Position numbers and translations under genes: made by a program. Shown here piece after piece: positions 3,059 to 36,701 of a DNA stretch of 37,717 bases. Below the pieces are notes generated by a model. That model was given only the letters and a program-made list of their open reading frames with translations, did not search any database and was not told where the DNA came from. Position 1 is the stretch's first letter, and every line of letters begins with the position of its first letter. Source of the DNA: a virus (taxonomy: Duplodnaviria > Caudoviricetes); IMG/VR virus record IMGVR_UViG_3300025288_000006, positions 1 through 37,717 of that record. One strand, 5' to 3'.

Positions 3059-3141
3059 TTTTCAATTTTCCAGTATATGAGATTGTGCCCTTTGCGGGGT
3101 AGATGCGCGCAGGTTCGCAAAATCAATGCGTGTATCGGGGA

Positions 3142-3179
3142 GGGCCGGGGCTTTATGCCTCGGCCCCCTTTGCTTTCTT
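3142..3179 (+). terminator. Probable intrinsic terminator or hairpin
   Basis: GGGCCGGGG-ctttatg-CCTCGGCCC followed by T-rich ctttgctttctt on the + strand. Confidence 0.5.
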
Positions 3180-3196
3180 GCTGTATTGATAGCTTG

Positions 3197-3541
3197 TTAT
3201 CCAGTGTGTCTCTTCTCTTCGGTCAGTGCTTTGGTGAGCGCGTCTGCGGCCTCTATCACGGATGCGCGCCCGCGATAGGCAATGACCATACAGAAAAAGC
3301 GAGGCCCGATCTTGTGGAAACTGCGGGTCAGGTTGTCCTCAATAAATTCCTCAAGGGCAAAGCTAGGGCCGGTGTGGGCGATGGGTGGCGATGAGCCAAA
3401 AAAATACCAGTAATCCTCTCTGCGGCACTCGAACCATTGGCCGGGCGCTCGCGCGCGTGCAAGTAGCACTTTGAGCTCGGCGCTTGACGCCGTGCCGGTG
3501 TGTATCTGTTCCAGGATCATTTGAGTTGCTCCGTCTTGCAT
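3197..3541 (-). CDS. Hypothetical protein (114 aa, lower GC)
   Basis: ORF inside the leftward operon, aromatic-rich core (YWYFF); the start could be 3520. Confidence 0.65.
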   Translation of the reverse strand: MQDGATQMILEQIHTGTASSAELKVLLARARAPGQWFECRREDYWYFFGSSPPIAHTGPSFALEEFIEDNLTRSFHKIGPRFFCMVIAYRGRASVIEAADALTKALTEEKRHTG

Positions 3542-3572
3542 GGTTTAACCAGTAAGCGCCCGGCATTGATGA

Positions 3573-3818
3573 TCATTGTGTGGTTTTTTTGGCGAGCTCC
3601 GCTGCCAAGGCGCGCAGTTTGTGGGTGTGTTCTGTGAGATCGTCGGCCTCTGTCTTGGCCTCGCGCCGGTGGCCGATGGTGCTCAAGTTTTCCGACTGCT
3701 GGCGGCGCAGCTCGGCGCGGCGGCTGTAATGATCTATGGCCAGAGTTAGGGCGTCAGTCACCATCACGACGCGCGCAGGGGTCAGCAAAAGAGTTTTGGT
3801 TTCCTGTTGGTTCGGCAT
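3573..3818 (-). CDS. Hypothetical protein (81 aa, helical)
   Basis: GGAG RBS within the repeated leader; ATG at 3818. Confidence 0.75.
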   Translation of the reverse strand: MPNQQETKTLLLTPARVVMVTDALTLAIDHYSRRAELRRQQSENLSTIGHRREAKTEADDLTEHTHKLRALAAELAKKTTQ

Positions 3819-3896
3819 TTGAGGGGCTCCATTTTGCGGGGTTTCATGCGTGGCGCATGGGATGGGGGCGGCGCGCCGCCCCGCACCGATGCGTCA
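3819..3896 (-). repeat. Intergenic repeat copy (module A plus RBS module; GCGAAC hairpin deleted)
   Basis: TGACGCATCGGTGCGGGGCGGCGCGCCGCCCCCATCCCATGCGCCACGCATGAAACCCCGCAAAATGGAGCCCCTCAA then ATG. Confidence 0.92.
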
Positions 3897-4286
3897 CGCG
3901 CACAAGCCCCATGGGGCGGCCTCATACTCCGGTGCGGCCTTCATGCCGAGGCGTTCCAGCTTCTCGCGGATTGCATCGACCTTTTGAAAGAGCTCGCGCT
4001 GTGGCACGTCGCCCTCGCTGCACTGGTACAGCAGGCATTCAAGGCTTTTGAAAAGAACGGGCGTGGCCTCGTTGCGGTGCGTCCAGCGATAGGCCGCGAT
4101 CTCTTCGGGCGTGCCGTTCATGTCCTCGCCCCGTGCCCCATAGCGGGCGGTTACGGCATCGGCGTTCAGGGTCCAGAGGCCGCGCCCGATGGCGTTTGCC
4201 TCGTCCAGTGACATGAGAACACCGGCGCGAATGATGGCGGTCACGGCTGCGTCAACGGTATCTGATCCGACGAAAAAAGCTGACAT
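3894..4286 (-). CDS. Conserved-looking phage/plasmid hypothetical protein (130 aa, MSAFFV...LFKSLECLLYQCSE)
   Basis: GGAG RBS, ATG at 4286; its TGA is the first 3 nt of the repeat. Confidence 0.8.
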   Translation of the reverse strand: MSAFFVGSDTVDAAVTAIIRAGVLMSLDEANAIGRGLWTLNADAVTARYGARGEDMNGTPEEIAAYRWTHRNEATPVLFKSLECLLYQCSEGDVPQRELFQKVDAIREKLERLGMKAAPEYEAAPWGLCA

Positions 4287-4389
4287 TTGAGGGGCTCCAT
4301 TTTGCGGGTTGTGCCGGGTTCGCATCCGGCGGGGTGTCATGCGTGGCGCATGGGATGGGGGCGGCGTGCCGCCCCGCACCGATGCGTCA
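4287..4389 (-). repeat. Intergenic repeat copy (modules A + B + RBS)
   Basis: TGACGCATCGGTGCGGGGCGGCACGCCGCCCCCATCCCATGCGCCACGCATGACACCCCGCCGGATGCGAACCCGGCACAACCCGCAAAATGGAGCCCCTCAA then ATG. Confidence 0.93.
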
Positions 4390-5274
4390 AGCCGCGCGGG
4401 CGGTCTTGATCTCGCCCATGCGCTCGGCCAGCACCCACAGGGCGCGGTTCAGGGCGCGGTTCTGGTCGATGCCTGCAACCTCGCGGGTTGTGCTGCGGCG
4501 CACTCGCCCGTTTTCGTCCACGGTGCGCCCGCGCAACCCGCCCTTGATCGTGTTTTCCTGCACCACGTTGAAGGCGGTCCAAAGATCTGTTGCCCGGTCC
4601 TCGCTGCGGCGCGGGCGGATCAGCTCGGCGGCGCGGATCGGCGCGGCGGTGGGGGCCTCTTCGGCATAGGCTGCGGGGAAGCGCAGGACGTGCGCGGCCT
4701 CTGCCAGTGCGGCGCGCTCGTTGTCCTGCAAGGTGATGGACTGGAACCGGCGCACCTGATCCGCCACGCGGGGCGCATCGTTCAGGACGGTATAAGCGCC
4801 CTCGATCACGTCTGACACCGCATTGCCGGAATGGCGGACCTTCACCTCGTTGAATGTGTCGCCTGTCATCAGGCCATTGGCGCAGACGAACCGGAAAAAG
4901 CCGGGGATCATCTGATAAGCCGATGTTCCGTCATTGGCATTCACAAGCACAATCTCGAAAGCCTGCCCCGCATCGTTGCGGATCGAGCGGTGGCGCAGGC
5001 GCAGCATGTGCTTTGTAAACTCGGCCTTGCCTTCGATCCGGCTGCGCGCCTGCACCGCTTGGAAGGGCTCGAACCCTTCGGCGCGCAGGCCGCCCAGAAC
5101 CTGAAAGGTCGGCACGCAGACAAAGCGGGCGCTGCGGCTCTCGTGCGCCTCGTTGGCGAAGATCGACGGCACCACGGCGCGCAACTGGTCATCAGTCAGG
5201 GCCTCGCCGTTGCGGCTGGCAATGGTCGAACCGGCTTTGATGGCGCGGGAAAAGCGGGAAAAATTGTAGGACAT
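4387..5274 (-). CDS. DUF932 (DUF945)-family protein
   Basis: Motifs PSIFA..HESRS.R, FTKHMLRLR, NANDGTSAYQM.PG.FRFVCANG, DLWT.FNVVQEN and NRALW; ATG at 5274 after AAGGA. Confidence 0.88.
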   Translation of the reverse strand: MSYNFSRFSRAIKAGSTIASRNGEALTDDQLRAVVPSIFANEAHESRSARFVCVPTFQVLGGLRAEGFEPFQAVQARSRIEGKAEFTKHMLRLRHRSIRNDAGQAFEIVLVNANDGTSAYQMIPGFFRFVCANGLMTGDTFNEVKVRHSGNAVSDVIEGAYTVLNDAPRVADQVRRFQSITLQDNERAALAEAAHVLRFPAAYAEEAPTAAPIRAAELIRPRRSEDRATDLWTAFNVVQENTIKGGLRGRTVDENGRVRRSTTREVAGIDQNRALNRALWVLAERMGEIKTARAA

Positions 5275-5378
5275 GGGTTTATTCCTTTTCGCGGGGTTGT
5301 GGCGGGGTTCGCATCCGCCGGGGTTGTCATGCTTGGCGCATGGGATGGAGGCGGCGCGCGCCTCGCACCGATGCGTCA
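5275..5378 (-). repeat. Intergenic repeat copy (modules A + B)
   Basis: TGACGCATCGGTGCGAGGCGCGCGCCGCCTCCATCCCATGCGCCAAGCATGACAACCCCGGCGGATGCGAACCCCGCCACAACCCCGCGAAAAGGA...; compensatory changes relative to the other copies. Confidence 0.92.
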
Positions 5379-5540
5379 ATATCCGAGCCATGCGAGGACG
5401 GTTTGCGCGTCGTAATCCTCGCGCTCGCCGCAATCGGCTTGGAAGTCTGCCCACTCATTCGCGACCCCGTGGCGGTCGAGCTCTTGGAGGGCGCGGGCGG
5501 CGCTGATCGTGGTTTCCTCGGCGCTGTCATAATAGGTCAT
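5376..5540 (-). CDS. Small acidic protein (54 aa, ends TVLAWLGY)
   Basis: AAGGA RBS; 12 D/E versus 3 R; its stop starts the repeat. Confidence 0.78.
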   Translation of the reverse strand: MTYYDSAEETTISAARALQELDRHGVANEWADFQADCGEREDYDAQTVLAWLGY

Positions 5541-5655
5541 CTGGGTTGATCCTTGCGGGGTTGTGGCGGGGTTCGCGGGCCGCCGGGGGAAGGGTGCGCG
5601 GCCCCCTCGGGGCCGCCTGACTAAATGCCGTCGCGCCCTTGGGCGCGGCCTTAAT
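5541..5655 (-). repeat. Structured intergenic region with module B (GCGAAC hairpin) and two extra GC hairpins
   Basis: GGCGG-CCCGCGAACC-CCGCC-ACAACCCCGCAAGGA; also CGCGCCC-AA-GGGCGCG and GCGGCCCC-GAG-GGGGCCGC. Confidence 0.8.
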
Positions 5656-5799
5656 TCACCCCACGAGGGCGGCAAGCTCTGCGGCAAACTGGACGGACCA
5701 AGCGGCCCACCCTAGAGCCGCAATCTGCCCAAGGGCGGCGGCGCAAATCGGGGTGGCGAAGCCAAGGGCGAGGGCGGCGGCGAGTTTCAGGGTAGGCAT
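5656..5799 (-). CDS. Small hydrophobic or membrane peptide (47 aa)
   Basis: AGGAG RBS; MPTLKLAAALALGFA... is almost entirely hydrophobic; first gene after the promoter. Confidence 0.6.
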   Translation of the reverse strand: MPTLKLAAALALGFATPICAAALGQIAALGWAAWSVQFAAELAALVG

Positions 5800-5872
5800 T
5801 GGGAAAGCTCCTAGTTGCGGGGTGGGGCGGGTTCGCAGTCCGCCGGGGCCGGTTCGTTCTGGCCTTGCATTC

Positions 5873-5901
5873 TGTCTAGTGGCCAATGGTTACAGGGTCA
5901 A
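5873..5901 (-). promoter_or_regulatory. Sigma70-type promoter of the leftward operon
   Basis: TTGACC-17 nt-TAGACA on the minus strand; the spacer contains a TGTAAC repeat. Confidence 0.65.
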
Positions 5902-6039
5902 GCCCTTTTTTTTCACGCATCCCCGCACCCCTTTTCGCCATCCCCTCGGGCGCTGGCCGCTCGGGCCTTACATTCCCCCTTCCCCGCACCCCTTCGGGAT
6001 GATACCTATCGGGGGCAATCCCGTGGCCGCTGCCGGGGT

Positions 6040-6295
6040 GATTTGTAACAACCGGGTTCGGGATTGTTACAACTTGTAACAGAGCCAAGCGCCTGTAAAC
6101 AAAAGAGAAAACACCACTTTGTAACAATGTAACGATGTAACGTCGCGTAGCGCCCGCGATCATACGCACGCGCACGCATAGAGAGATAACCATGTAACAC
6201 TGTAACAATGTTACAAAGTGTTGTTAAGTGCAGCAATTTCAAAGACTTAGCGTTGTAACGGGTTGTAACAACCTGCGCCAACTTGTTACAGGCAC
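6040..6295. repeat. TGTAAC/GTTACA repeat cluster, candidate lytic replication origin
   Basis: About 12 copies in both orientations in an AT-rich non-coding stretch, including the palindrome TGTAACAATGTTACA at 6201-6215. Confidence 0.75.
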
Positions 6296-6435
6296 AGCTT
6301 TTCCCATTTCATATCAATGGGTTGGCATTCTGGGGGCTTTAATCAATTTTGGCGTTGCGCGGTTATGGCGCTCGGGCTTATGGTCTGCGTGTCGGTCGGG
6401 CCTTGGGGCCGGGCTGGATCGAATAAAAAAATTGG

Positions 6436-7050
6436 GTGATATTCTTGACCGGCTCGGGCGCTTCCCTTTCCCCTTCTGGCCTCGCCGCTGCGGTGCGTGA
6501 TCTGGACTTTGCCGAGACTGACGGCGAGGGGCAGGGTTCGCTTTTCGGCGCGGTGCCGCCCGATCCTGACGGGGTGGGCGAGCTGGCAGAGGCCGCGCCG
6601 GGCGAGCGCCGGGGCCGGGGTCGGCCCGCCGGGTCGCGGAACCGCAGCACGCAAGAATGGTCCCGGTTCATCCTGTCCCGGTATCGCTCGCCCCTGATCG
6701 GTCTGGCCGAGATCGCCAGCGCCACGCCTGCCGAGCTGCAAGCCGCCCTTGGCGGCCCGCCGCGCCCACCTGCCGCCGGGGGCGACGGGGCAGAGGGCGA
6801 CGGGGGCGGGGGCGTCAGCCTGCAAGCCTGCCTGTCGCTGATCATGCAGGCGCAGACCAGCCTTGCGCCCTACCTGCACCAGAAACAGCCGCTGGCCATC
6901 GACGCGGGCGGGGTCGGGATGATGACGATCATCATTCAGAAGGGCGACGGGGCGACCATGGAAGGCGCGCGGATCATGCCGGTGGATGACGCGGAAGAAA
7001 TCGAGGAAAATCAAGGGCTTGAGATTTCAGGCGGGGGCATGTCGGAATGA
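6436..7050 (+). CDS. terS: Probable terminase small subunit
   Basis: GRGRPAGSRNRST and APYLHQKQP motifs typical of TerS-like proteins; lies upstream of terL; start uncertain. Confidence 0.6.
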   Translation: MIFLTGSGASLSPSGLAAAVRDLDFAETDGEGQGSLFGAVPPDPDGVGELAEAAPGERRGRGRPAGSRNRSTQEWSRFILSRYRSPLIGLAEIASATPAELQAALGGPPRPPAAGGDGAEGDGGGGVSLQACLSLIMQAQTSLAPYLHQKQPLAIDAGGVGMMTIIIQKGDGATMEGARIMPVDDAEEIEENQGLEISGGGMSE

Positions 7051-7083
7051 TCATGTCGGAACGGACCACGCAAGCTGTTGATT
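7009..7083. promoter_or_regulatory. Two inverted IHF-consensus sites flanking a CATGTCGGAA direct repeat (candidate packaging site)
   Basis: AATCAAGGGCTTG at 7009-7021 (+) and AATCAACAGCTTG at 7071-7083 (-) match WATCAANNNNTTR; CATGTCGGAA at 7038 and 7052. Confidence 0.45.
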
Positions 7084-7350
7084 TGCAAGGACAATTGCCC
7101 TTGCTGTCGTCGTGTCAGGCAAACGACGACACCGGCCACGCCGCCAGCGCCGCCGCCGATGGCCGGGGCCTCGGTGCTGGTCGCGCCGGGCAGGCCGCAG
7201 CATCAAGGGGGGGGGCCTTCGCGGCCACCGAGCCCCCCCCCTCCCCCTCGCGCGAAGTGCCATCCCCCCTCTCTGAGACAAGAATTGGCGGCGGGGAAGG
7301 CTTCTACCCACGGGGTGCGGGGGGGTGCCACGGCCAGCGGGGGTCAGGGG

Positions 7351-7518
7351 ATGGCAGAAGGCGAGCAGGCCCATAAGCTGCGCATGATCAAGTCCCTGCC
7401 GTGCGCCGGTGAGGTTGAGGGATGGGTTGGCCTGGCGCGCGAGCGCGGTTTCTTCCCAGGCGAGAAAGCCGCCCTGGACAACCGGCTGCGGGAATTGACG
7501 ACGCGGGGGGCGCGATGA
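7351..7518 (+). CDS. Hypothetical protein (55 aa)
   Basis: ATG after GGGG; its stop overlaps the next ATG (ATGA). Confidence 0.55.
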   Translation: MAEGEQAHKLRMIKSLPCAGEVEGWVGLARERGFFPGEKAALDNRLRELTTRGAR

Positions 7519-7808
7519 GCGATCCTGTGCGTAAGCCTGCCCATTATCTCGCCCTGGGGGCCACATGCGCTTGCTGTGGCGCTGCGATCGAGTGCAAGCG
7601 CGTGACCCGGCATATGTCTTTCGAGCTCGGATCGGCGGTCAAATACATCTGGCGCTGCGATCAGAAGGGCGATGCGATCGAGAACCTGGAAAAAGCGATC
7701 GAGTGCATCACGGAAGAGATTGCGATGCGCAAGGAAGCGGCTGGCACTGGTCGAGAGCTTGCGACAGACGAGGCCCTGCATGAAATTGCGCTTGGGTGGT
7801 GGCCCTGA
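7515..7808 (+). CDS. DUF3310-family protein (T7 gp1.7/SaV-like)
   Basis: DPV.KPAHY...IEC...F.LG.AVKYIWR...KG..IENLEKA motif. Confidence 0.8.
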   Translation: MSDPVRKPAHYLALGATCACCGAAIECKRVTRHMSFELGSAVKYIWRCDQKGDAIENLEKAIECITEEIAMRKEAAGTGRELATDEALHEIALGWWP

Positions 7809-9400
7809 TGCTGGAAACCTTCGCAACTGATCCCGAGATCACCAAGCGGTTCACCAAGCCTGGCCCGGTGGCCTCGGCATTCATGAGCTCGTCGGCGCGG
7901 ATCGTGGGGATCATGGGGCCGCAGGGTGGCGGAAAGACAACCGTGATCATCAACCGGGTGCTGGAAAAAGCCGCGATGCAGCCGCCAAGCCCGATTGACG
8001 GGGTGGCGCGCTATCGCTGTGTGGTCTGGATGCGCACTTATCGCGAGCTCTGGGCCAAGGTCATCCCTGATTGGCTGGAATGGATACCGAAACAGAACAA
8101 GGCGTTTCGGATTTCCTGGACCGGCGGCGTGGATAACCCGGCCGAGCACAAGTTTGAGTTCATCGCCATTGTGGATGGCCAAAAGCGCCGCGTGAAAGCC
8201 GAGGTCTGGTTCCGCGCGATCGGCGATCAGACTGCGACCGAGGCCGCCAAGGGTCTGCACGCCACCGATGGATGGTTGCCGGAAAGCACAAGCGCCACGG
8301 TGGAAATGCGCAAGGCCCTGTTCGGCCGTCTTGGCCGCTATCCGAGCCAGGAGCATGGTGGCGCACCGCACCGCCAGCTCTTTTGCGACTGGAACGCAGG
8401 CGATCCCTACAACTGGACCAGCGAATATTTCATCACCGAGCGCCCGCTCGATGTGGACGAAACCGGCCGCAAGATGGTCGAGTTTTTCCGCCAGCCAGGC
8501 GGCCAGGACGCAGCGGCCGAGAACCTGCACAACCTGCCGGAAGGCTACTACCGCGACCAGTGCGCCGCCAACAGCGACGATCCCGACTGGATCAGGCGCA
8601 TGGTGGATAACCAGATCGGGTTCATGCGCGACGGGATGCCGGTTTATTCGGATTTCGCCGATGAGCTGCATGTGAGCGATACCGAGCTTGTGCCCTGGCG
8701 CGGCGTGCCGCTGATCATCGCGGCCGATGCGGGGTTGACCCCGGCCGCCGTGATCATGCAGCGCAATGCGCATGGCGAGGTCCAGGTATTGCAGGAGCTC
8801 ACGTCGCGCCGGGCTGATGCGGAAACCTTCGGTGAGGCGCTCGTGCTCGCGATCGACAGCCCGCGATACAAGGACGTGCCGCGTGCCCGTGAGCTGTTCG
8901 TGGACCCGACCGCCCTCAACGCGGGGGAAAGCAGCGGCCGGGATAACGAAAACGAGCAACTCAAGTCCTGGGCAAAAATCGTGTCGAAGAAAACCGGACT
9001 GAACGTGCGCCCGAGCCGGTGCGGCAACGATATCGTCATCCGCACCGGATCGGTGCAGCAAATGTTCCGGCGCCGGATCGGCCAGCGCACGGCCTGCCGG
9101 ATTGACCGCAAGCATTGCCCCGAGCTGATCAAAGGGTGCGCGCGCGATTACAAATACGAAAAGGTCGCGGTGGTCACGAAAGCCGGGGGCCTGGAATACA
9201 AGGACAAGCCGAGCAAAAACTTTGCCAGCCACGTCTGCAACGCCCTCGAATATGCCGCCGCCAACGCGGGCGAGCAGGACATTCTGAGCGGCAAGGCTGA
9301 CCGGGTGGCCGCGCGCAAGGCCGAGGCCGCACGGCGCGCAAAGGCCATCGCCGGGCCGCGTCAAAGCGATCCCCTCTCGCAATATGGGAGGGCCGTATGA
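7808..9400 (+). CDS. terL: Terminase large subunit
   Basis: Walker A GPQGGGKT, RTYREL, AENLHNLPEGYY, nuclease motifs AADAGLTPAAV and SHVCNALEY. Confidence 0.93.
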   Translation: MLETFATDPEITKRFTKPGPVASAFMSSSARIVGIMGPQGGGKTTVIINRVLEKAAMQPPSPIDGVARYRCVVWMRTYRELWAKVIPDWLEWIPKQNKAFRISWTGGVDNPAEHKFEFIAIVDGQKRRVKAEVWFRAIGDQTATEAAKGLHATDGWLPESTSATVEMRKALFGRLGRYPSQEHGGAPHRQLFCDWNAGDPYNWTSEYFITERPLDVDETGRKMVEFFRQPGGQDAAAENLHNLPEGYYRDQCAANSDDPDWIRRMVDNQIGFMRDGMPVYSDFADELHVSDTELVPWRGVPLIIAADAGLTPAAVIMQRNAHGEVQVLQELTSRRADAETFGEALVLAIDSPRYKDVPRARELFVDPTALNAGESSGRDNENEQLKSWAKIVSKKTGLNVRPSRCGNDIVIRTGSVQQMFRRRIGQRTACRIDRKHCPELIKGCARDYKYEKVAVVTKAGGLEYKDKPSKNFASHVCNALEYAAANAGEQDILSGKADRVAARKAEAARRAKAIAGPRQSDPLSQYGRAV

Positions 9401-12041: not shown

Positions 12042-12064
12042 CCCCAACCATAGGAGCGAACCCC

Positions 12065-13890: not shown

Positions 13891-13948
13891 TGCCCCTATG
13901 TGGTGGAACAACTTTGCGAACCAACAAAATCTACGATGGAGAAATCAG

Positions 13949-28319: not shown

Positions 28320-29597
28320 ATGACCGTTTCCTCTGCCTATAGCCCGCAGGAAGACGATGGCGACGGGGTTTCGGTCATCTTTCCCGTGTCGTTTCGGTTC
28401 GACAAGCCCGCCGATGTGCGGGTGACAATCTACGCGGTGGACGGCACGCCGCGCACACCGGCCTTTATTGTCAGCGGCACGGGCGATCCTGGTGGGTCGA
28501 TCGAGATCACCAACGGCGCGCCACTCGTGGGCGAAAAGGTTGTGCGCGAGCGCGTGACCGAGCTGGTGCAGCAGGTGAATTATGAGGCTGGTGATTTCCC
28601 GAGCTCGGCGCATGAAAGGTCGGCCGACCGGCTGACCATGGCCGCGCAGGAGCGGGCCGCCCTAGCTGGGCGCACGTTGCGCTTTGGCCCGCTGTCGCCC
28701 GAGATTGATGCGATCGAGCCGGTGGCGCTTGGTCGAACGATCGTGCGCACGGCTGGTGGGTTTGGCGAGGGGCCGACCGCCGATGAGATCGCAGCGGCGC
28801 AGGGGTTCGCGGTGCAGGTTGGTCTGGACGCAGTGGCCACGGCCGCCGACCGCGTGCAGACCGGACTGGATCGGGTGGCGACGGCCGCCGACCGGGTGCA
28901 GACCGGGCTGGATGCGGCCGCCACCGCCGCCGATCGCGTGCAGACCGGGCTCGATAAGACTGCCACTGCCGCCGATCGTGTGCAGACCGGGCTCGATGCG
29001 GTCGCCACCGCCGCCGATCGCGTGCAGACCGGCCTCGATAAGACTGCCACCGCCGCCGACCGGGTGCAGACCGGCCTCGATGCCGCCGCCACCGCCGCCG
29101 ATCGCGTGCAGACCGGGCTCGATGCCGCCGCCACTGCTGCCGATCGCGTGCAGACCGGCCTCGATGCCGCCTCTGTCGCGAAGTCGTCTAACCCGGATTT
29201 CACGGTGGACCCGGCCAGTCTTGCCCCGCGCGCGGCGATCAACACCCGCTTCGGCGTGGCAAATGCGCCAGGGACAAAGGAGGCGCTGAATGCCGCAGGT
29301 TCCGCCCCGATATGTGCCGGGCGGGCGTGGGGAAATTTTAGTGGTGATACAATCGTCGCCCGTCAATCTTTAAACTTGAGCATCGCCAGGACGGCCACTG
29401 GCGAATTTACCTTTACCATGCCCACTGCAATGCCGAATGCCACCTATTCGGTGCAGGTCAGTTGCAATGCGGCAGTCGGCATTGTGGCTATGGCGGTGGG
29501 TGTAGCCACAGCGTCAAGTTTTACCGTGTCTTTCCGGCGTGTTGACACGGGCGTTGCGGTGAACCCAACCCAAATATTTGTGGAGGTCACAGGATGA
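28320..29597 (+). CDS. Tail fibre protein
   Basis: N-terminal T7-gp17-like anchor (GDG....FPVSF.F...DV.V; DRLTM..QE), a repeat stalk, and a beta-rich C-terminal head (RAW.NF.G). Confidence 0.85.
   Translation: MTVSSAYSPQEDDGDGVSVIFPVSFRFDKPADVRVTIYAVDGTPRTPAFIVSGTGDPGGSIEITNGAPLVGEKVVRERVTELVQQVNYEAGDFPSSAHERSADRLTMAAQERAALAGRTLRFGPLSPEIDAIEPVALGRTIVRTAGGFGEGPTADEIAAAQGFAVQVGLDAVATAADRVQTGLDRVATAADRVQTGLDAAATAADRVQTGLDKTATAADRVQTGLDAVATAADRVQTGLDKTATAADRVQTGLDAAATAADRVQTGLDAAATAADRVQTGLDAASVAKSSNPDFTVDPASLAPRAAINTRFGVANAPGTKEALNAAGSAPICAGRAWGNFSGDTIVARQSLNLSIARTATGEFTFTMPTAMPNATYSVQVSCNAAVGIVAMAVGVATASSFTVSFRRVDTGVAVNPTQIFVEVTG
28821..29170 (+). repeat. Eight tandem 42-bp coding repeats (GLDxxATAADRVQT)
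   Basis: 14-aa unit repeated 8 times plus a partial copy, with synonymous variation. Confidence 0.95.
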
Positions 29598-30061: not shown

Positions 30062-30065
30062 GCTG

Positions 30066-31120: not shown

Positions 31121-31383
31121 ACCGCCCGCCGATCTTCTTCCTGATCACCCGCAGTTTTTGGATCTTCCTCGGCACCGTGGCGCTCATGCTTGAACAGGGC
31201 GAGCCGGTGCTGCGAGCGATCGCGCAGCTCGTGGTGACGCTGCGGGGCGCTGGTGATGTGGCGGCCCTGACCGAGTGGCTGCAAGCCGTGGCCCCGATCA
31301 TAACCCTGGCGCTCATGCTGCAACAGCGCGCCGGTGCCGCCCGCCCCTACACCGTCAAGCCTTCCGCTGAAACTCTCAAATAG
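31117..31383 (+). CDS. Probable holin
   Basis: 88 aa, TRSFW motif and two hydrophobic segments; follows the lysin. Confidence 0.65.
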   Translation: MNRPPIFFLITRSFWIFLGTVALMLEQGEPVLRAIAQLVVTLRGAGDVAALTEWLQAVAPIITLALMLQQRAGAARPYTVKPSAETLK

Positions 31384-31391
31384 GTGCCCGG

Positions 31392-31487
31392 ATGATGCGT
31401 CTTGAAATTACGTTCCATTGGCTGTGGCTCGCTGTGATTGGCGGGCTGCTCGTCTGGCTCCGTGCAATCTGGTGGTTTCTCAGTTGA
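31392..31487 (+). CDS. 31-aa Trp-rich single-TM peptide (not in the ORF track)
   Basis: MMRLEITFHWLWLAVIGGLLVWLRAIWWFLS*; AGGT RBS; its TGA overlaps the TTG start of the i-spanin. Confidence 0.55.
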   Translation: MMRLEITFHWLWLAVIGGLLVWLRAIWWFLS

Positions 31488-31807
31488 GCCCACTCGGGAA
31501 GCTCGGGGCTGCGCTGGCCCTGGTCGCGGCCTTCTGGGGCCACGGCTTTTACACCGGCGATAAATCGGGCCGCGCTGATGAGATCGCAAGGACGATTGCG
31601 CAGATCGTGCGCCTGGAAAAGAACCTTGCCGATGTGACCGATGCCAACCGGGCGGCGGCCGCGATTATCGAGGCCAGCCGCATTGCGCAGGCCACTCTCG
31701 CACAGGAGCTCGAAAATGAAGCGCGCCTTGACCCTGACGCTGTGCGCCGCGTGCCTTCCCCTGACAGCCTGCGTCGGCTGGAAAGGCGGTGGATCGGTGC
31801 GCGTTGA
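31484..31807 (+). CDS. Inner-membrane spanin (Rz-like)
   Basis: N-terminal TM followed by a periplasmic coiled coil. Confidence 0.7.
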   Translation: MSPLGKLGAALALVAAFWGHGFYTGDKSGRADEIARTIAQIVRLEKNLADVTDANRAAAAIIEASRIAQATLAQELENEARLDPDAVRRVPSPDSLRRLERRWIGAR

Positions 31808-31982
31808 GCCGCCCCAGGCTGTGTTCACTGCACCTTGCCCGCACCCGTCGCAGTTCCTCGGCGTGCAGGATTACGAGCTGATGGCGGGCCGCCTCGGTGA
31901 TGCGCTGATCGACTGTGAAGCCAGACGTGCCGGGCTCGGTGCCTGGGCCGCCGGGGTGGCTGCGGCGGTGGGTGGCAAATGA
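31716..31982 (+). CDS. Outer-membrane lipoprotein spanin (Rz1-like)
   Basis: MKRALTLTLCAACLPLTAC lipobox, Pro-rich with Cys residues; overlaps Rz in another frame. Confidence 0.78.
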   Translation: MKRALTLTLCAACLPLTACVGWKGGGSVRVEPPQAVFTAPCPHPSQFLGVQDYELMAGRLGDALIDCEARRAGLGAWAAGVAAAVGGK

Positions 31983-32166
31983 AAAGAGGGCCAGCTTCAT
32001 GCAGTTGAGCATAGAGTTTCTTTGCCGCGTCCTGCCGGGGCTATCGGCTTCCCCGGCCGGGGTGCTCTTGGCTCTGCACAAGGCCGAGGCCGTGGTGGGG
32101 CGGCTGCGGATGACCCGCCCGCAGGCGATCGACCTGGCGCGCCTGCTGATCAGCGCGGCAAAGTAG
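31972..32166 (+). CDS. Possible hypothetical protein (about 55-64 aa)
   Basis: ORF coupled to the Rz1 end; start uncertain (31972 or 31999). Confidence 0.4.
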   Translation: MANEKRASFMQLSIEFLCRVLPGLSASPAGVLLALHKAEAVVGRLRMTRPQAIDLARLLISAAK

Positions 32167-32376
32167 GGTTAAAGAATATATATCTTAAGTTAAACAGTTA
32201 AGCGGTTTTGGTCTGCCGCGAAAACTGCATGCAGTCAAGGGCTTGTCGGGTGAAGCTGGTAAGGCCCGATGTGTGATACCACGAATGATAATGTGTGATA
32301 CCACAACCCCGCCGATGTGTGATACCACAAGTCTGCGCGGGTGATACCCCGAGCCGTTGCAGAGTTATCCACAGGG
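32167..32376. promoter_or_regulatory. Plasmid replication origin: AT-rich region, iterons and DnaA box
   Basis: AT-rich 32167-32202; ATGTGTGATACCAC at 32269, 32291 and 32315 plus partial GTGATACC at 32341 (22-24 bp period); TTATCCACA at 32365-32373. Confidence 0.88.
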
Positions 32377-33213
32377 TTAAAAGTCAAACCGCCGGTCGCG
32401 CCATTCGAGCTTGGCCGGATCACGGTTGATCGAAAGCGTCGGACCATTCACGCCCTTCGTCTCGGTCAGGCTGTATTCAGGCAGTGCGTTGCGCTTGATT
32501 GCGTTGCGCAAATCGCGGGCGAAAGGCCCGTAGTCTTGCGCTGAACCGCTGCGGGTGTGCAGGTCGCGGAAGGTGAACGCCCACCCTGCTTGCTTGCCTA
32601 CATGACGTCTTGCTAGCCGGTAAAGAAAGCGGTCTAGGCCGCTGGTCAGGTCGAAGTATTGCGGCGAGATTGCCAGCACGTCACGATCAAGGGTGACGGC
32701 TTCGTAAAGCCACGGGGGCAGCTCAAGCCAAGCCTCTTTGATCTTGCCATTCTCTTCTATGACGCCTGATGCGCCAAGAAGGTTAAAGGCCCCGAGTGTT
32801 CGGCGCTTACCGTTTAGCGATGGGCTTTCATAAACAACCGTGGTGGAGGTCAGGCGCAGAAGAGCGGCCTTCAACTCGGCATAGCCTTGTCCGCTGATGT
32901 TGCGGCCCACTGCGCTCAAGAGATTGTAGGGGTGGAAGGTCACGCGGGGCGACACCGGCAAGCCCTGGTTCACCGCCTCGTTGATCTGGCTGATCGCCCA
33001 AAGGATCACGTCATAATCCCATATCGTCGCGATGCCGTATTTCTCGGCCGCTGTGACCGTGACGCGCTGGCCGCCTGGTCCGTCCCATTCGATCAGATTG
33101 CGCTTGTTCTTCGACAGGCTCACAAGGGGCGCGGTCATACTCTCGCGCTCATCGCGAAACGGCACGTCGCCGATCAGCGCCACGAATAGATCAAGCTGGC
33201 GGTTCTTGCTCAT
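32377..33213 (-). CDS. repA: Plasmid replication initiator protein A (RPA family)
   Basis: QLDLF, RD....M..P..SLSK, ATIWDYDVI...ISQ, Y..L..AL.RL..T and YF.LT.GL.RFLYRLARRH.G motifs. Confidence 0.9.
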   Translation of the reverse strand: MSKNRQLDLFVALIGDVPFRDERESMTAPLVSLSKNKRNLIEWDGPGGQRVTVTAAEKYGIATIWDYDVILWAISQINEAVNQGLPVSPRVTFHPYNLLSAVGRNISGQGYAELKAALLRLTSTTVVYESPSLNGKRRTLGAFNLLGASGVIEENGKIKEAWLELPPWLYEAVTLDRDVLAISPQYFDLTSGLDRFLYRLARRHVGKQAGWAFTFRDLHTRSGSAQDYGPFARDLRNAIKRNALPEYSLTETKGVNGPTLSINRDPAKLEWRDRRFDF

Positions 33214-33235
33214 GGCTGGCAGTCCTTTGAGGGTA

Positions 33236-33280
33236 AGGCAATGCGGCAAGCTAGCAGGATAGCAAGCCGCATTGCTATCA
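33236..33280. promoter_or_regulatory. parS/operator-like repeat upstream of repA
   Basis: Inverted repeat GCAATGCGGC...GCCGCATTGC; shares GCCGCATTGCTATCA and CAATGCGGCAAG with 35107-35156. Confidence 0.7.
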
Positions 33281-33505
33281 GACTTCGCCCGCGTCGTCGC
33301 GCAAGAGATCAATCGCGCGCTCGATGAGCGTCTGTTGTGGCGTGCGGGTCTTGGCCGATAGCATCCGCAGGTATTCCGCGCGGTCGGCGCTCACGCGCAC
33401 ATTCACCATGACGCGCTCGCCCGAGCTCGGCGTCTCGGTCATCGGCACGGCGGCAGGCTTGCGGGGCGGCGGCGCGATCGCGCCAAGGTCGGGGCGTTTG
33501 GTCAT
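33278..33505 (-). CDS. Ribbon-helix-helix partition adaptor (ParG-like)
   Basis: Flexible N-terminal tail, strand VMVNVRV and two helices (EYLRMLSAKT, QQTLIERAIDLL). Confidence 0.78.
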   Translation of the reverse strand: MTKRPDLGAIAPPPRKPAAVPMTETPSSGERVMVNVRVSADRAEYLRMLSAKTRTPQQTLIERAIDLLRDDAGEV

Positions 33506-33747
33506 GTGGAAAATTCCTCTGCTTTGGGTGTAGGTCCGATGCCAACCTTGATCGGCGGATGCTGATTGCCGAGGATGGTCACATAGATGGGTGCGCCTGC
33601 GGCCAGCGCCGCCAGCTCGTCCGGTGTGGGTTGCCATGACGTGACCATTGCAGGCACGCCTTGCTCTTCAATGTCCCGTACCGGCAGGCCGAGGTAGCCC
33701 TGGCTCTTGCCGAGGCGACGTGTCGCGCCCTCAATTGCGTTGATCAT
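33502..33747 (-). CDS. Conserved phage hypothetical protein (81 aa)
   Basis: LPVRD...SWQPTPDELAAL.AG..I...ILG..HPP motif; translationally coupled. Confidence 0.75.
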   Translation of the reverse strand: MINAIEGATRRLGKSQGYLGLPVRDIEEQGVPAMVTSWQPTPDELAALAAGAPIYVTILGNQHPPIKVGIGPTPKAEEFST

Positions 33748-34139
33748 CATTGCGGCTCACCCCAATAGATCACGGTGCCCTCGAACGGCAGGCCGTGGGT
33801 GTCATCAAACCAGTTCGCCATGTCGGTGAAGCTCGGGAAGCCGTCCGCCTCGGCAAACTCGTTGTCAGTCATGGGGCCGTCGCGGCCCCACAATGTTGCC
33901 GGGACCATCTGCCCATTGAGATACATGCACGTCGCTTCGATGCGCACGCGGGCTGTGCGCGTCACTTTGGCCTCTGCCAGCAGGCGGCAAGCCTTGGTCC
34001 TCATGCCGGTGTAGAGCTTGAGCCTGTCGCCTGGCTTGCAGTGCGGGCGGCCGTCCTTGCGATCGGCGCGGATTGTCTGGCGCTTGTGGCCCCATTCTAC
34101 CGCCTCGGCGAATTGCTTCTTGAAATTGAATGCGGGCAT
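33747..34139 (-). CDS. ASCH/PUA-like domain protein
   Basis: NF...F...V..G.KRQTIR, GD.L.LYTGMRT and FA.ADGF motifs. Confidence 0.8.
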   Translation of the reverse strand: MPAFNFKKQFAEAVEWGHKRQTIRADRKDGRPHCKPGDRLKLYTGMRTKACRLLAEAKVTRTARVRIEATCMYLNGQMVPATLWGRDGPMTDNEFAEADGFPSFTDMANWFDDTHGLPFEGTVIYWGEPQ

Positions 34140-34798
34140 TATCCGTCGATCCCCTCTCTCATCATGGCCGCCGCGATCTCGGCCGCGACAGCGCGCGCCT
34201 CGTCGTTGATCTTGGCAAAGGGCGTTTCCGATGCGGCCCGGCCGAGGGTGTGCGCCTGGCGGATGGCGGGCAGCTCGCGCAGCTCGTGCTCGAATGCCTT
34301 GAGCCCGGCGCGCTTGATGTAGCCCCGCACCCCCAGCCCCTCTTTCGTGCTTCCTCGCGTGCGCCCCAAGGCAAGCCTGATGCGCTCGGGCGGCACGCCT
34401 GCATCGGCCAGCTCATAGGCCACGCGCGCCTGCGGTTCCAGATCGTCAAGGCTGTAGCCGGTGGGCAGGATGACCAGCGCAGAGTTGAGCGCCATGGCCA
34501 CGCCGCCGCGCTCGGCATGGGCCGGGCCGTCCAGGATGGTCAGGTCATAGCGCGCCGCCTCTTGCAGCGCGCGCTCCACCGATCTGAACCGCATCACCGA
34601 AACGTCAGGCTCGATCTCGGCGGCCGTGCGCCGGTGGTGCCATTGTGTCGATGTGCCTTGAGCTGCGTCCAGGTCAGCGATCAGCACGCGCCACCCGGCG
34701 CGCGCCATTTCCACCGCCATGAGGCGGGCGAGGGTGGACTTGCCGACCCCGCCTTTCTGGCTGATGAGGGAAAGGATGGTTGGCGGTTCAGCAGTCAT
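34139..34798 (-). CDS. parA: ParA-family partition ATPase (short type Ib)
   Basis: QKGGVGKST, ADLDAAQGT and ILDGP motifs; 219 aa with no N-terminal HTH. Confidence 0.92.
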   Translation of the reverse strand: MTAEPPTILSLISQKGGVGKSTLARLMAVEMARAGWRVLIADLDAAQGTSTQWHHRRTAAEIEPDVSVMRFRSVERALQEAARYDLTILDGPAHAERGGVAMALNSALVILPTGYSLDDLEPQARVAYELADAGVPPERIRLALGRTRGSTKEGLGVRGYIKRAGLKAFEHELRELPAIRQAHTLGRAASETPFAKINDEARAVAAEIAAAMMREGIDG

Positions 34799-35066
34799 AG
34801 GGGATCACCGTGTGCGGCATGTTGCAGGGAAGCCAGCCGATCACTTCGCCGCGCCCTTCGGTGAAACAATCTTGCGACCAGCACCAGCCGACAAACTGCC
34901 ACTCGTCTGTGCCGGTGTCTTCAAGATTATTAAAGCCGAGGGTCCACGCCTTGCGCGCGTCTTCCAGCGGGTGTTCGCCTTCGGTGTAGTCCACCAGAAG
35001 CCAGAGCATTTTACCTGTCTTCGGCGCGTCTTTCATCGGCTTGGCCGGTTGCGGGGTGTCTGTCAT
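34788..35066 (-). CDS. Hypothetical protein (92 aa, APKTG / DUF551-like)
   Basis: AAAGGAG RBS; PM.DAPKTG...W...GWLP pattern. Confidence 0.65.
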   Translation of the reverse strand: MTDTPQPAKPMKDAPKTGKMLWLLVDYTEGEHPLEDARKAWTLGFNNLEDTGTDEWQFVGWCWSQDCFTEGRGEVIGWLPCNMPHTVIPYDC

Positions 35067-35106
35067 GGGTGCTCCTTTGCTCGGCCGGTTCGCTCGGCCG
35101 CAAAGG

Positions 35107-35156
35107 TATCTTGCCGCATTGCTATCAAGATTGCAAGATAACAATGCGGCAAGATA
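35107..35156. repeat. Perfect 15-bp inverted repeat; parS-like centromere/operator or recombination site
   Basis: TATCTTGCCGCATTG-20 nt-CAATGCGGCAAGATA, between the int stop and the par operon. Confidence 0.75.
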
Positions 35157-35157
35157 G

Positions 35158-36321
35158 TCAGCTAGCAGCGGCCATAAGGTGCGCGCCGATATCCTCAATC
35201 GTCGGCGTGCGGATCAGATCGAGCTTGGCCGTGGCCTGATCGGCAAGCAGCCTTTGCCGGGGCAGGTAGGTTTCCAGAATGTCGAGCCCGCTTTGCAGGG
35301 TGTGCCCGCTGATAGAGCAGATTTGCGCAATGCTGGCCCCACTCTGTGCGGCCCAGACCATGCCTGACCGGCGCAGATCGCGCGCGGCCAGCTCGCCCTT
35401 GTGCGTGGGCTCGCGCACGGCCGCATCCGTGCCGGTCAGCGATGGCATATCCTTGGCGGCCGCTGTGCGCACGGTGTCCCATGCGCGTTCAAAGGCGCGC
35501 AAGGTGTAGGTTGTGCGGGTGCGCTCGCTTGGAAAGAGGGGCGCTTGCGCGTCATCGGGCAGGGTGCCGAGGCGGTCAATGACCAGGGCGTGCAGGCGGA
35601 ATGACAGCTCGGCCTTGGTCTTGGACTGCGTGAGGTAAAGCGCGCCCTGGTCGATCTGGTGGCGGGTCAGGCTGAGAATGTCGCTGACGCGCTGCATGGT
35701 CGCGGCCGTGGTCAGCGCCACCGCCGCCACGCTTGGCAGCTTCAACCGCTCGGCTGTGCGGATCATGGCCCAAAGCTCGTCACGGGTTGCGATGCGATTG
35801 CGCCGCTCGCGGGGGGCTGCGCTGATCCCGATTGCCGGATTTGTCGCAAGCAGGTTCTCATCAACGGCCCATGACAGGAAGGCGCGCAATGCGCCCAGGC
35901 TGTTGCGTGCATCATCGGGGCTGATGGCTGCAAGGGCGGTGTGCCATGCCGAGATTTCGCGGCGGGTGAGCTGGTCGAGCCGCTTTGCGCCAAGCGTTGC
36001 CTTTGCCCGCGCCAGGTGCCGTTCATAGTCGCGCTGTGTGCGGGGCGACAGGCTGCGCCATTCATCGCTAGCTTGATATCTTGCGAGCATGTCGGCAACT
36101 GTCTGCGCCGCCGGGCGGGTGCTGGCCTCGGCTGACAGGAAGGCATCGGCGCCGGTGTTCAGCTCGTCCGCTTGGGCGAGTGCGGCCGTGGTCAGAATGC
36201 CGAGCGCCTGGCTCTTGAAGCCTTGACGGCGCAGGGTGGCCGATGGTTCCCAGAATGCCCGGCCCGACCGGACTTGAACGCGAGGGGTGCGCGCGGCGCG
36301 CAGGGTGAGGCTCTTGCTCAT
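35158..36321 (-). CDS. int: Tyrosine recombinase/integrase
   Basis: Catalytic set: R (MQRVSD), K (QSKT), RDLRRS, SGH and Y (LETY); SAM-like core-binding region; ATG at 36321 after AAAGGA. Confidence 0.9.
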   Translation of the reverse strand: MSKSLTLRAARTPRVQVRSGRAFWEPSATLRRQGFKSQALGILTTAALAQADELNTGADAFLSAEASTRPAAQTVADMLARYQASDEWRSLSPRTQRDYERHLARAKATLGAKRLDQLTRREISAWHTALAAISPDDARNSLGALRAFLSWAVDENLLATNPAIGISAAPRERRNRIATRDELWAMIRTAERLKLPSVAAVALTTAATMQRVSDILSLTRHQIDQGALYLTQSKTKAELSFRLHALVIDRLGTLPDDAQAPLFPSERTRTTYTLRAFERAWDTVRTAAAKDMPSLTGTDAAVREPTHKGELAARDLRRSGMVWAAQSGASIAQICSISGHTLQSGLDILETYLPRQRLLADQATAKLDLIRTPTIEDIGAHLMAAAS

Positions 36322-36347
36322 GGGTGCTTCCTTTGCTGGGAGGGGTG

Positions 36348-36701
36348 CTAGTTCGCTATGGCACTCGGGAGGGTTTGTTGCTCGGCTTCCATGCGAAAGG
36401 TGCGGGCAATCTGTGACAGTATGTGTCGCTTGTCTGGCGGCATTGCGCGGTAGAGCTGCACGAGCTCGGCCTCTTCGCTGCCCTCGGGCGTCGGCTGATT
36501 GGCAAACGCGGGTAAAAGATCGACGGCCTTGCACCCAAGGATTGCCGCGAGTGTCTGCGCCCTTTCGGGCGACATGGATATGGTGCCATTTTCGAGCTTG
36601 GATATGAGCTGTTGTGATATCCCGGCGCTCTGCGCGAGGGTCGCTTGCGATAGGCCGCGCGCGATCCGGCGGAGCCGTAGGCTTGGGTTCTCTTGCATCA
36701 T
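36348..36701 (-). CDS. XRE-family HTH repressor (CI-like, no S24 peptidase domain)
   Basis: LRLRRIARGLSQATLAQSAGISQQLISKLENG; divergent from a cro-like gene. Confidence 0.88.
   Translation of the reverse strand: MMQENPSLRLRRIARGLSQATLAQSAGISQQLISKLENGTISMSPERAQTLAAILGCKAVDLLPAFANQPTPEGSEEAELVQLYRAMPPDKRHILSQIARTFRMEAEQQTLPSAIAN

What the first reader, a model, noticed from the sequence alone, without database searches (positions are those of the whole stretch)
3091..36364. Genome-wide start-associated hairpin with a GCGAAC loop about 30 nt before start codons: a candidate post-transcriptional regulon
Seen: GCGAAC occurs in sense orientation in the leaders of many accessory and lysogeny genes. 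Minus-strand copies are at 5831-5836, 5571-5576, 5307-5312, 4318-4323, 3113-3118, 35088-35093 (par operon) and 36351-36356 (before int). Plus-strand copies are at 13916-13921 and 12056-12061 (two morons in the head module). Distances to the start codon are about 32, 31, 33, 32, 55, 22, 30, 28 and 4 nt. In most copies the hexamer lies in a loop whose stem differs but still pairs (GGCGG/CCGCC, GCCGG/CCGGC, CGGCCG/CGGCCG, GTGC/GCAC), so it covaries. It is often followed by ACCCCGCAA and then the RBS. The int and par-operon leaders also share AGCAAAGGA(A)GCACCCATGA. I did not see the motif before core structural genes, apart from a GTGAAC variant at the capsid RBS. Inference: this is an RNA element recognised by a protein or an antisense RNA that co-regulates anti-defence, integration and partition genes. 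Analogies are lambda boxB/nut sites, mycobacteriophage start-associated sequences and the bipartite P1/P4 C4 targets. I do not recognise it as a described motif.
Basis: partly seen in the sequence, partly recalled or inferred. Interest (0 to 1): 0.85.

Follow-up and report, generated by a model that had tools for sequence, protein, structure and literature searches.

The report
Phage two-seed RNA targeting early leaders
A bacterial virus marks six of its early, integrase and partition genes with a two-part tag at the ribosome-binding site and carries, on the opposite strand, a predicted small RNA whose two loops are complementary to that tag; tag and RNA change together in related phages, so the RNA likely switches these genes down by base pairing, though no transcript has been seen.

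Summary
The motif is real, but one listed copy is probably the regulator itself. GCGAAC is not enriched overall (18 found, 35 expected) but is the top hexamer 18-38 nt before starts. Six copies (four early genes, int, par) sit in hairpin loops with differing stems, followed by a second box that runs into the Shine-Dalgarno. The 3113 copy, read on the + strand (about 3086-3178), is a predicted non-coding RNA: a -10-like element, two hairpins whose loops are complementary to the two boxes, and a terminator. Seven related phages carry the same two-hairpin unit at the end of the early operon. Across four tag types (GCGAAC, GCCAGAC, GTGAAAC, ACACCAC) the RNA loops match their own phage's tags. It works like P1/P7 c4 RNA but is not an Rfam C4 member and has several targets. 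The 12056 copy is rejected and 13916 is unresolved. The main rival is an Aca-like helix-turn-helix protein binding the hairpins. No RNA data exist. The scan noted similar two-seed RNAs earlier in other phages (unchecked notes), none on this DNA.

The parts
3086..3178 (+). Predicted small non-coding RNA, about 90 nt: hairpin 1, hairpin 2, terminator
   Evidence: z -4.5 on + strand against -1.7 on - strand; same two-hairpin fold at the same place in 7 relatives; overlapping 105-codon ORF not conserved
3086..3101 (+). Hairpin 1, loop UUGC within CCUUUGCGGGG, complementary to box 2 and part of the Shine-Dalgarno
   Evidence: 7-10 perfect pairs with 7 leaders; stem letters vary among relatives
3102..3136 (+).
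   Evidence: 10-12 bp basal stem fully paired in 5 of 5 GCGAAC-type phages with different letters
3142..3178 (+). Intrinsic-terminator-like hairpin and U run, working only on the + strand
3052..3079 (+). Candidate promoter of the RNA (TGTTCA, 16 nt, TATATG), overlapping the start codon of the 79-aa gene
   Evidence: TA[T/A] begins 11-14 nt before hairpin 1 in 8 of 8 phages (read; chance 3-8% per genome); not called by the strict sigma-70 scan
5808..5844 (-). Target leader of the 47-aa first early gene: hairpin 5826-5844, box 2 plus SD 5808-5822
5550..5584 (-). Target leader of the 54-aa gene (phrog_25588): hairpin 5565-5584, box 2 5550-5560
5283..5319 (-). Target leader of the DUF932 gene: hairpin 5301-5319, box 2 variant 5283-5296
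4295..4330 (-). Target leader of the 130-aa gene: hairpin 4313-4330, box 2 4295-4308
3827..3840 (-). Leader of the 81-aa gene with box 2 only (hairpin missing)
   Evidence: 10 perfect pairs to hairpin 1; best of 41 leaders by cofolding
35071..35100 (-). Target leader of the par operon; box 2 is also paired in cis with an upstream CCUUUGC
   Evidence: conserved with other stems in G001 and G411
36327..36364 (-). Target leader of the integrase, overlapping the last codons of the repressor gene
   Evidence: conserved with other stems in G001 and G411
13913..13922 (+). Possible single-box site before the 85-aa gene; unresolved
   Evidence: 10-nt match to hairpin 2 but no stem and no box 2; 23rd percentile by cofolding; hexamer absent in homologues
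2819..3058 (-). 79-aa helix-turn-helix-like gene, last in the early operon
   Evidence: Pfam HTH_31 E 0.0026, below cut-off; four-helix model, pLDDT 87; generic XRE-type matches, Z 5-7.5
5872..5901 (-). Candidate early promoter (TTGACC ... TAGACA) with a palindromic ACCAWTGG in the spacer (5883-5894), a likely operator
   Evidence: present in the early promoter of 5 of 5 GCGAAC-type phages; coordinates
5333..5378 (-). Element A copy 1: 46-nt hairpin that starts with the upstream stop codon, just 5' of the target hairpin
4344..4389 (-). Element A copy 2
3851..3896 (-). Element A copy 3
3197..5799 (-). Early accessory operon: six genes, among them DUF932 (4387-5274) and DUF1419 (3197-3520)
   Evidence: the same slot holds ArdA, ArdC, LPD29, ParB-like or RadC genes in relatives

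Best explanation
The GCGAAC hairpin and the box that runs into the Shine-Dalgarno form a two-part tag on six leaders, and the opposite strand at 3086-3178 carries the complement of both parts in the loops of a predicted small RNA, which likely pairs with these leaders and would block their translation. Shown: the tags, their positions, the complementarity, the conserved fold and the joint change of tags and loops across four types. Inferred steps: (1) the RNA is made from a promoter over the start of the 79-aa gene and ends at the U run; (2) hairpin 2 starts a loop-loop contact with the GCGAAC loop; (3) hairpin 1 pairs over box 2 and the SD and excludes the ribosome; (4) this ends the early burst of anti-restriction-type proteins and tunes int and par, while the helix-turn-helix protein probably represses the early promoter at the DNA palindrome; (5) in a lysogen the RNA would act only on incoming phages of the same tag type. 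The sign of the effect on par is open, because its SD is already paired in cis.
For: Leader hexamers have stems of 4 bp or more in 17 of 20 cases against 6 of 58 elsewhere in three genomes, p 1e-9. The two-hairpin unit lies at the end of the early operon in 8 phages. Four tag types, each matched by its own RNA loops. Cofolding gain: same type mean -8.4 kcal/mol (n 125), other type -3.9 (n 139); the L001 RNA gives -20 to -23 on its 3 leaders and 0 to -3 on 7 window leaders. The window RNA's best 6 of 41 leaders are 3818, 5540, 5799, int, 5274 and 4286, all in the top 2.1% of 3766 windows. Strand evidence: G-U pairs 19 on the RNA strand against 4 on the mRNA strand over 8 phages, stronger z in 7 of 8; a -10-like TA[T/A] in 8 of 8; a terminator or U run in 6 of 8. 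In this last copy box 2 is not used as an SD, and in G410 it lies about 700 nt from the next gene. Fine match: G001's loop has two U and its 5 leaders have GCAA followed by C or G; L196 and L197 have three U and all 7 of their leaders have GCAAA.
Against: The RNA was found because it mirrors the leaders, so the ranking is partly built in, and part of the pairing is plain anti-SD. Strand asymmetry is small in G001, L029 and L037, and with a longer 3' end G001 folds so that hairpin 1 is lost and L195 drops to z -1.7. The par leader ranks only in the top 9%. The L037 RNA binds L195 and L197 leaders (-8.7, -7.4) as well as its own (-7.0), and the L029 RNA binds L195 leaders at -10.0. Two of 4 L195 leaders and 1 of 2 L197 leaders lack an exact GCGAAC. 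L029 and L037 show no clear terminator. The GCCAGAC phage has no tag at its integrase. The helix-turn-helix protein diverges with tag type too (48-59% within type, 22-26% between), so co-variation alone does not exclude a protein reader. The 8 phages are related and are not independent trials.
Confidence: 0.72

Rival explanations
1. Aca-like control: the 79-aa helix-turn-helix protein at the end of the operon binds the promoter palindrome and also the GCGAAC hairpins, repressing translation as Aca2 does; the 3113 copy is then a sense-strand autoregulatory site.
For: Small HTH gene last in an anti-defence-type operon, palindrome in the promoter spacer. Aca1 and Aca2 bind leader hairpins, and such motifs occur between genes inside operons (PMC13551039, passages). 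Fold matches include Aca1 (Z 5.7, rmsd 3.1, 63 aligned) and Aca2 (Z 5.0). The protein diverges with tag type.
Against: It does not explain why the last copy folds with G-U pairs, a -10-like element and a U run on the opposite strand, why both boxes lie in loops there, or why the copy stays in G410 when an insertion separates it from the gene. The fold matches are generic for HTH proteins (notes). Here the loop is conserved and the stem varies, while the Aca1 model has the stem bound like DNA.
Confidence: 0.13
2. The tags are translation enhancers or binding sites for a host factor, like mycobacteriophage start-associated sequences, and the opposite-strand fold is a by-product.
For: Fixed distance to the start, one orientation, confined to non-structural genes, as described for SAS (PMC3203893, passages).
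Against: A host factor would not be expected to accept four unrelated loop sequences in related phages, and the last copy has no start at the usual distance.
Confidence: 0.05
3. The hairpins are boxB/nut-like sites for an antitermination protein that carries transcription through the early operon.
For: A conserved loop on a variable stem in an early polycistronic transcript.
Against: Copies sit before each ribosome-binding site, not once after the promoter, and are tied to an SD-overlapping box; the terminator scan of 2700-6500 gave one weak - strand site, inside the last gene; no N-like protein was named by PHROGs. The features of nut sites are recalled, not from a call.
Confidence: 0.04
4. 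The leaders are repeats that serve as recombination points for swapping early gene cassettes and are homogenised by gene conversion, with no RNA role.
For: Whole intergenic units are near-identical within a phage, and cargo genes differ between relatives.
Against: Stems differ between copies in one genome while pairing and loop are kept; int and par carry the tag without the rest of the repeat.
Confidence: 0.04

Closest known systems
c4 antisense RNA of phages P1 and P7 (Rfam RF01695; c4-a1b1 targets)
   Same: Small phage RNA with two antisense regions (a', b') likely in loops, pairing near a ribosome-binding site to block translation; sequence differences give P1/P7 heteroimmunity (PMC12197685 and PMC8198154, passages; PMC2864571, table and supplement passages).
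   Different: No Rfam C4 match. Two side-by-side hairpins with their own promoter, convergent on the target operon, whereas c4 lies in the c4-icd-ant operon it controls. Targets are 3-7 separate leaders (early cargo, int, par), with no icd or ant gene recognised.
CI RNA of phage-plasmid P4
   Same: Antisense RNA of a phage-plasmid pairing with two target sequences, seqA and seqC (PMC4825925, passage).
   Different: CI is processed from the transcript it controls and causes premature termination; here the RNA is on the opposite strand and its second seed covers the SD.
sar RNA of P22 and OOP RNA of lambda
   Same: Short RNA from the opposite strand of a regulatory gene's leader or end (PMC12197685, passages); the RNA here is fully complementary to the region before the 79-aa gene.
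   Different: Those have one overlapping target; here the seeds are repeated as tags in distant leaders.
Aca1/Aca2 regulation of acr operons
   Same: Small HTH gene closing an anti-defence operon, palindrome in the promoter, hairpins in leaders and between genes (PMC13551039, passages).
   Different: No acr gene or Aca family match was found, and no antisense RNA is mentioned there ('antisense' 0 occurrences).
Start-associated sequences (SAS/ESAS) of Cluster K mycobacteriophages
   Same: Oriented repeats at the starts of non-structural genes, overlapping the SD, reader unknown (PMC3203893, passages).
   Different: Different sequence; that paper finds little support for ESAS hairpins, whereas these stems keep pairing; a candidate RNA reader is identified here.

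Membership tests
c4 antisense RNA (RF01695) | Match to the Rfam C4 covariance model | tested here: not met
   Window at E up to 5: 4 weak unrelated hits; 5 loci at gathering score: 0; L029 and L037 at E up to 1: one weak unrelated hit away from the RNA
c4 antisense RNA (RF01695) | Two antisense regions displayed in loops | tested here: met
   Predicted folds in 8 phages; in L029 the second seed is in an internal loop
c4 antisense RNA (RF01695) | Bipartite target at a ribosome-binding site | tested here: met
   16 of 20 leader hexamers have stem and box 2, 0 of 58 others (box 2 and leader definitions overlap at the SD)
c4 antisense RNA (RF01695) | Encoded in the same operon, upstream of icd and ant | tested here: not met
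   RNA is on the opposite strand at the operon's end; no icd or ant family among 49 proteins scanned
c4 antisense RNA (RF01695) | Type-specific seeds giving heteroimmunity | tested here: inconclusive
   Four seed types with matching tags; immunity itself cannot be tested here
c4 antisense RNA (RF01695) | Expression and translational repression shown by experiment | not testable with these tools
   Needs RNA from infected cells and reporters
P4 CI RNA | Processed from the leader it controls; causes premature termination | tested here: not met
   Opposite strand with own promoter-like and terminator-like flanks; an effect on termination was not testable
Aca-type HTH regulator | Small HTH gene in an anti-defence operon with an inverted repeat in the promoter | tested here: met
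   the cargo's anti-defence role rests on family names in relatives (ArdA, ArdC)
Aca-type HTH regulator | Homology to a named Aca family and an adjacent acr gene | tested here: inconclusive
   No PHROGs, Pfam or NCBIfam Aca match; fold Z 5.0-5.7 is generic; no Acr library was searched
Aca-type HTH regulator | Protein binds the leader RNA hairpin | not testable with these tools
   Needs a gel shift
lambda nut/boxB | boxA-boxB pair after an early promoter, N-like protein, downstream terminators (recalled) | tested here: inconclusive
   Position and copy number differ; no N-like family named; boxA was not searched
Mycobacteriophage SAS | 13-bp consensus 3-7 bp before the start | tested here: not met
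   Consensus quoted does not resemble these leaders

The most novel reading that the evidence does not exclude
A family of temperate phages shuts off its whole interchangeable anti-defence cassette, and tunes integrase and partition, with one programmable two-seed RNA. Any gene dropped into the cassette gains control through a standard tagged leader, and seed switching creates RNA-defined immunity groups between related phages.
Probability: 0.4. Interest if true: 0.85.

Novelty: new variant of a known kind. Interest (0 to 1): 0.72.

Why it matters
Phages must express anti-defence genes at once and then silence them; the known solution is Aca proteins. This would be an RNA solution that reaches several genes at a time and links them to the choice between integration and plasmid life. 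It names a candidate reader for start-associated repeats, a class whose reader was left open for mycobacteriophage SAS. Four natural seed types give ready-made orthogonal pairs for a compensatory test and for synthetic translational control. The tag also marks unknown genes as likely early anti-defence candidates.

Tried and rejected
Genome-wide enrichment of GCGAAC: rejected. Rfam: nothing relevant. GenBank phages: no DNA match to the early region; terminase relatives 24-32% identical among the 20 of 27 listed. Pattern GCGAACC..ACCCCGCAA in IMG/VR: 119 loci from 53 of 64 parts scanned, mostly chance; 3 had a stem of 5 bp or more plus SD, of which L047 led to G001, L072 is near-identical to the window, and L107 was not followed. 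RNA-gene patterns: 16 loci gave only G001; 17 loci gave only the L196 phage. Integrase search: 0 of 7. Primase search: 6 loci, 2 already known, 4 without the inverted early operon. HTH in 401 genomes: 1 false hit; in metagenomes 5 loci, 1 the window itself, 1 false. DUF932 search: 25 loci, only L001 showed the architecture in the upstream 260 nt. The crude positional test missed in G001 (3 of 43, rank 41), G002 (1 of 29), L195 and L197 because the script dropped overlapped genes; one search lists the sites directly. duplexfold without accessibility did not separate leaders well. Other phages with element A (L026-L028, L033, L158, L160, L161, L163, L217) showed no two-part tag by eye (output was cut); not tested formally. 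G004 has DUF932, element A and an HTH gene but no tag that I could see. Sequencing runs: no RNA holder listed; one RNA run laid nothing and DNA contigs gave no informative variants. Foldseek: no match at E 0.001. Covariance model R1 found one strong hit in each of its 5 source phages and no new member in 48 plus 20 sources apart from a second record of the L196 phage. Literature: 10 searches found no description of this RNA or tag; the library lacks most subscription papers and bioRxiv supplements are closed.
Full report
Setting. The window is a whole phage record with 127-nt terminal repeats. It has podovirus-type head and tail genes, a primase, an integrase, a repressor, ParA, an Arc-like protein and an RPA-family replication initiator, so it looks like a phage-plasmid. 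The host is probably an alphaproteobacterium: the only named relative of the 79-aa protein is from Sagittula sp. P11, and element A occurs in Rhodobacter and Sulfitobacter genomes. A leftward operon at 3197-5799 holds six small genes, among them DUF932 and DUF1419. In relatives the same slot holds ArdA, ArdC, LPD29, ParB-like or RadC genes. Reading these as anti-defence cargo rests on the family names.

Observation. GCGAAC is depleted overall (18 against 35 expected) but ranks first among all hexamers 18-38 nt before starts (6 of 18, p 8e-8; crude gene calls). In three genomes (window; 40,000 of 40,233 nt of G001; all of G411), 17 of 20 leader hexamers have a Watson-Crick stem of 4 bp or more against 6 of 58 others (p 1e-9). 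Sixteen of the 20 also carry a second box, GCAA or GCGA followed by GG, against 0 of 58; this second test is partly circular because the box overlaps the SD. The 16 sites are the early genes, int and par in each genome: 6, 5 and 5. Stems differ within and between genomes while the loop stays. 12056 is the SD spacer. 13916 lacks stem and second box, and homologues lack the hexamer, but it has a 10-nt match to the RNA described next, so I leave it open.

The 3113 copy. It lies about 55 nt from the next ATG and has its own SD further on. On the + strand, 3084-3176 folds into three hairpins at z -4.55, against -1.70 for the - strand. The third is a terminator-like hairpin with a U run. The first loop reads CCUUUGCGGGG, the complement of box 2 with part of the SD. 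The second reads GGUUCGCAA, the complement of the GCGAAC loop. Perfect pairing with the six tagged leaders is 7-9 nt for hairpin 1 and 6-8 nt for hairpin 2. By cofolding, the best 6 of 41 leaders are 3818, 5540, 5799, int, 5274 and 4286, within the top 2.1% of 3766 windows; par is at 9.2%, 12065 at 12.9%, 13949 at 23% and capsid at 63%. This ranking is partly built in, since the RNA was spotted by its mirror sequence. An overlapping 105-codon ORF is not conserved.

Relatives. Four more phages with GCGAAC tags (G001, L195, L196 = G411, L197) were reached through a motif scan and the 79-aa protein. Each has, antisense to the leader of the same small gene, the same two hairpins, with basal stems of 10-12 bp fully paired in different letters. 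The int and par tags of L196 were seen only afterwards. Three phages reached through DUF932 or element A use other tags. L001 (G002; 40,000 of 41,521 nt read): loop GCCAGAC and box CCYGAGAC on 3 leaders, RNA at L001 4898-4948 (-) with loops carrying GUCUGGC and GUCUC. L029 (G409): loop GTGAAAC on 2 leaders and box CCRAACC on 4, RNA at 5721-5780 (-) with GUUUCAC and UUGGUUU. L037 (G410): loop ACACCAC on 3 leaders, RNA at about 2890-2951 (+) with UGUGGUG and AUCCUCUA. There my first look, directly before the HTH-like gene, failed; the unit lies about 700 nt upstream, beyond an insertion, and matches 6 of the 7 loop letters. Cofolding gain averages -8.4 kcal/mol for same-type pairs (n 125) and -3.9 for others (n 139); the pairs are not independent. 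The L001 RNA is sharply specific (-20 to -23). The L037 RNA is not: it scores L195 and L197 leaders as well as its own, and L195 leaders score well with all RNAs.

Which strand. G-U pairs number 19 on the antisense strand and 4 on the mRNA strand over the 8 units, and z is stronger on the antisense strand in 7 of 8, by little in L029 and L037. TA[T/A] begins 11-14 nt before the first stem in 8 of 8 (read), where chance is 3-8% per genome. That spacing would place the start at hairpin 1. A TGGTCA-like hexamer lies 16-17 nt upstream in 7 of 8, but it overlaps the HTH start codon in most, so its conservation is not independent. The strict sigma-70 scan did not call this promoter. A terminator or U run follows in 6 of 8. 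With a longer 3' end G001 refolds and hides hairpin 1, and L195 falls to z -1.7. The second loops of two types hold a YUNR motif (UUCG, CUGG), known from antisense recognition loops (recalled).

Mechanism. Most likely (0.72) the early promoter fires on entry, the cargo is made, and the RNA then builds up, touches the leader loop with hairpin 2 and covers box 2 and the SD with hairpin 1. It is also fully complementary to the region before the 79-aa gene. That protein is predicted to be a four-helix HTH and probably binds the ACCAWTGG palindrome in the early promoter, present in 5 of 5 GCGAAC-type phages. All timing and direction of effect are inferred. In the par leader box 2 is already paired in cis, so RNA binding could open it. 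The chief rival (0.13) is that the HTH protein reads the hairpins, as Aca2 does (PMC13551039, passages). The protein diverges in step with tag type, so only the strand evidence and the G410 layout speak against this.

Comparison. It works like c4 of P1/P7 (PMC12197685, PMC8198154, passages; PMC2864571, table and supplement passages) but fails the C4 model and gene-context tests, so it is not filed as C4. It differs from P4 CI (PMC4825925, passage) and from SAS (PMC3203893, passages). Ten searches of the held library found no description of it; subscription papers and bioRxiv supplements were out of reach. After my reading was fixed, a word search of the scan's notes showed several two-seed or multi-seed RNAs aimed at early leaders in other phages. 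They are unchecked, and I do not count them as support. A look-up by sequence found nothing.

Element A. A separate 46-nt hairpin starts with the stop codon of three early genes. On 23 sequences 91.9% of cells pair and 12 of 19 pairs change on both sides; most rows were picked by a pattern that fixes the lower stem. It recurs up to 5 times in other phage early operons and in 3 of 151 genomes, 2 strongly, also where I saw no tag. An RNase III site or mRNA stabiliser is my guess, from recall of T7 early RNA processing; it was not tested.

Verdict. A real regulon tag with a good candidate reader; a new variant of the two-seed antisense kind; expression and effect not shown. Interest 0.72.

Noticed in passing
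window 5333-5378, 4344-4389, 3851-3896 (-); also L001, L026-L037, L158, L160-L164, L168, L195-L197, L217: Element A: a covarying 46-50 nt hairpin that begins with the TGA of an early gene, with no Rfam match; widespread in phage early operons, possibly an RNase III site or stabiliser. Often followed by a short GCnnGAC.
   Followed up: partly
window 5883-5894; G001 25334 and 17377; G411 19679; L195, L197, L028: Palindrome ACCAWTGGT in the spacer of the early promoter, a likely operator; G001 has a second copy before the homologue of the 13949 gene, and G411 has box 2 in that gene's leader, so this moron may belong to the early regulon.
   Followed up: partly
window 35105-35160 and 33235-33280 (-): Inverted repeats built on TAGCAATGCGGCAAG before the par operon and before repA; likely sites for the Arc-like protein at 33278-33505.
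   Followed up: no
window 32266-32355: Four GTGATAC-containing repeats just past repA, probably iterons of a plasmid origin (family D14).
   Followed up: no
window 28770-29231: 42-nt tandem repeats in the tail fibre gene (family D1).
   Followed up: no
window 6040-6310: AT-rich stretch with repeated GTTACA/TGTAAC between the early promoter and the small terminase region; may be a lytic origin or packaging site.
   Followed up: no
window 33222-33230 (-): The repA leader has a 6-nt match to hairpin 1 and ranks in the top 4% by cofolding; may be only the SD.
   Followed up: partly
L107 3001-3029: One GCGAAC hairpin with box 2 before an 827-aa gene in a 94-kb contig (G005); relation to this system unknown.
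   Followed up: no
L176, L178-L181, L183, L184, L188, L190, L191 at the match: A conserved stretch of about 120 nt in 10 viral contigs that carries both seed words but does not fit model R1 (L176 tested).
   Followed up: partly
L037 about 2300-2850: An insertion on the opposite strand, by eye an HNH/AP2-like endonuclease gene (recalled resemblance, not scanned), separates the RNA unit from the HTH gene.
   Followed up: no
L003, L005, L007, L008 early regions: Other DUF932 phages repeat promoter or ribosome-site blocks before early genes without the tags described here.
   Followed up: no
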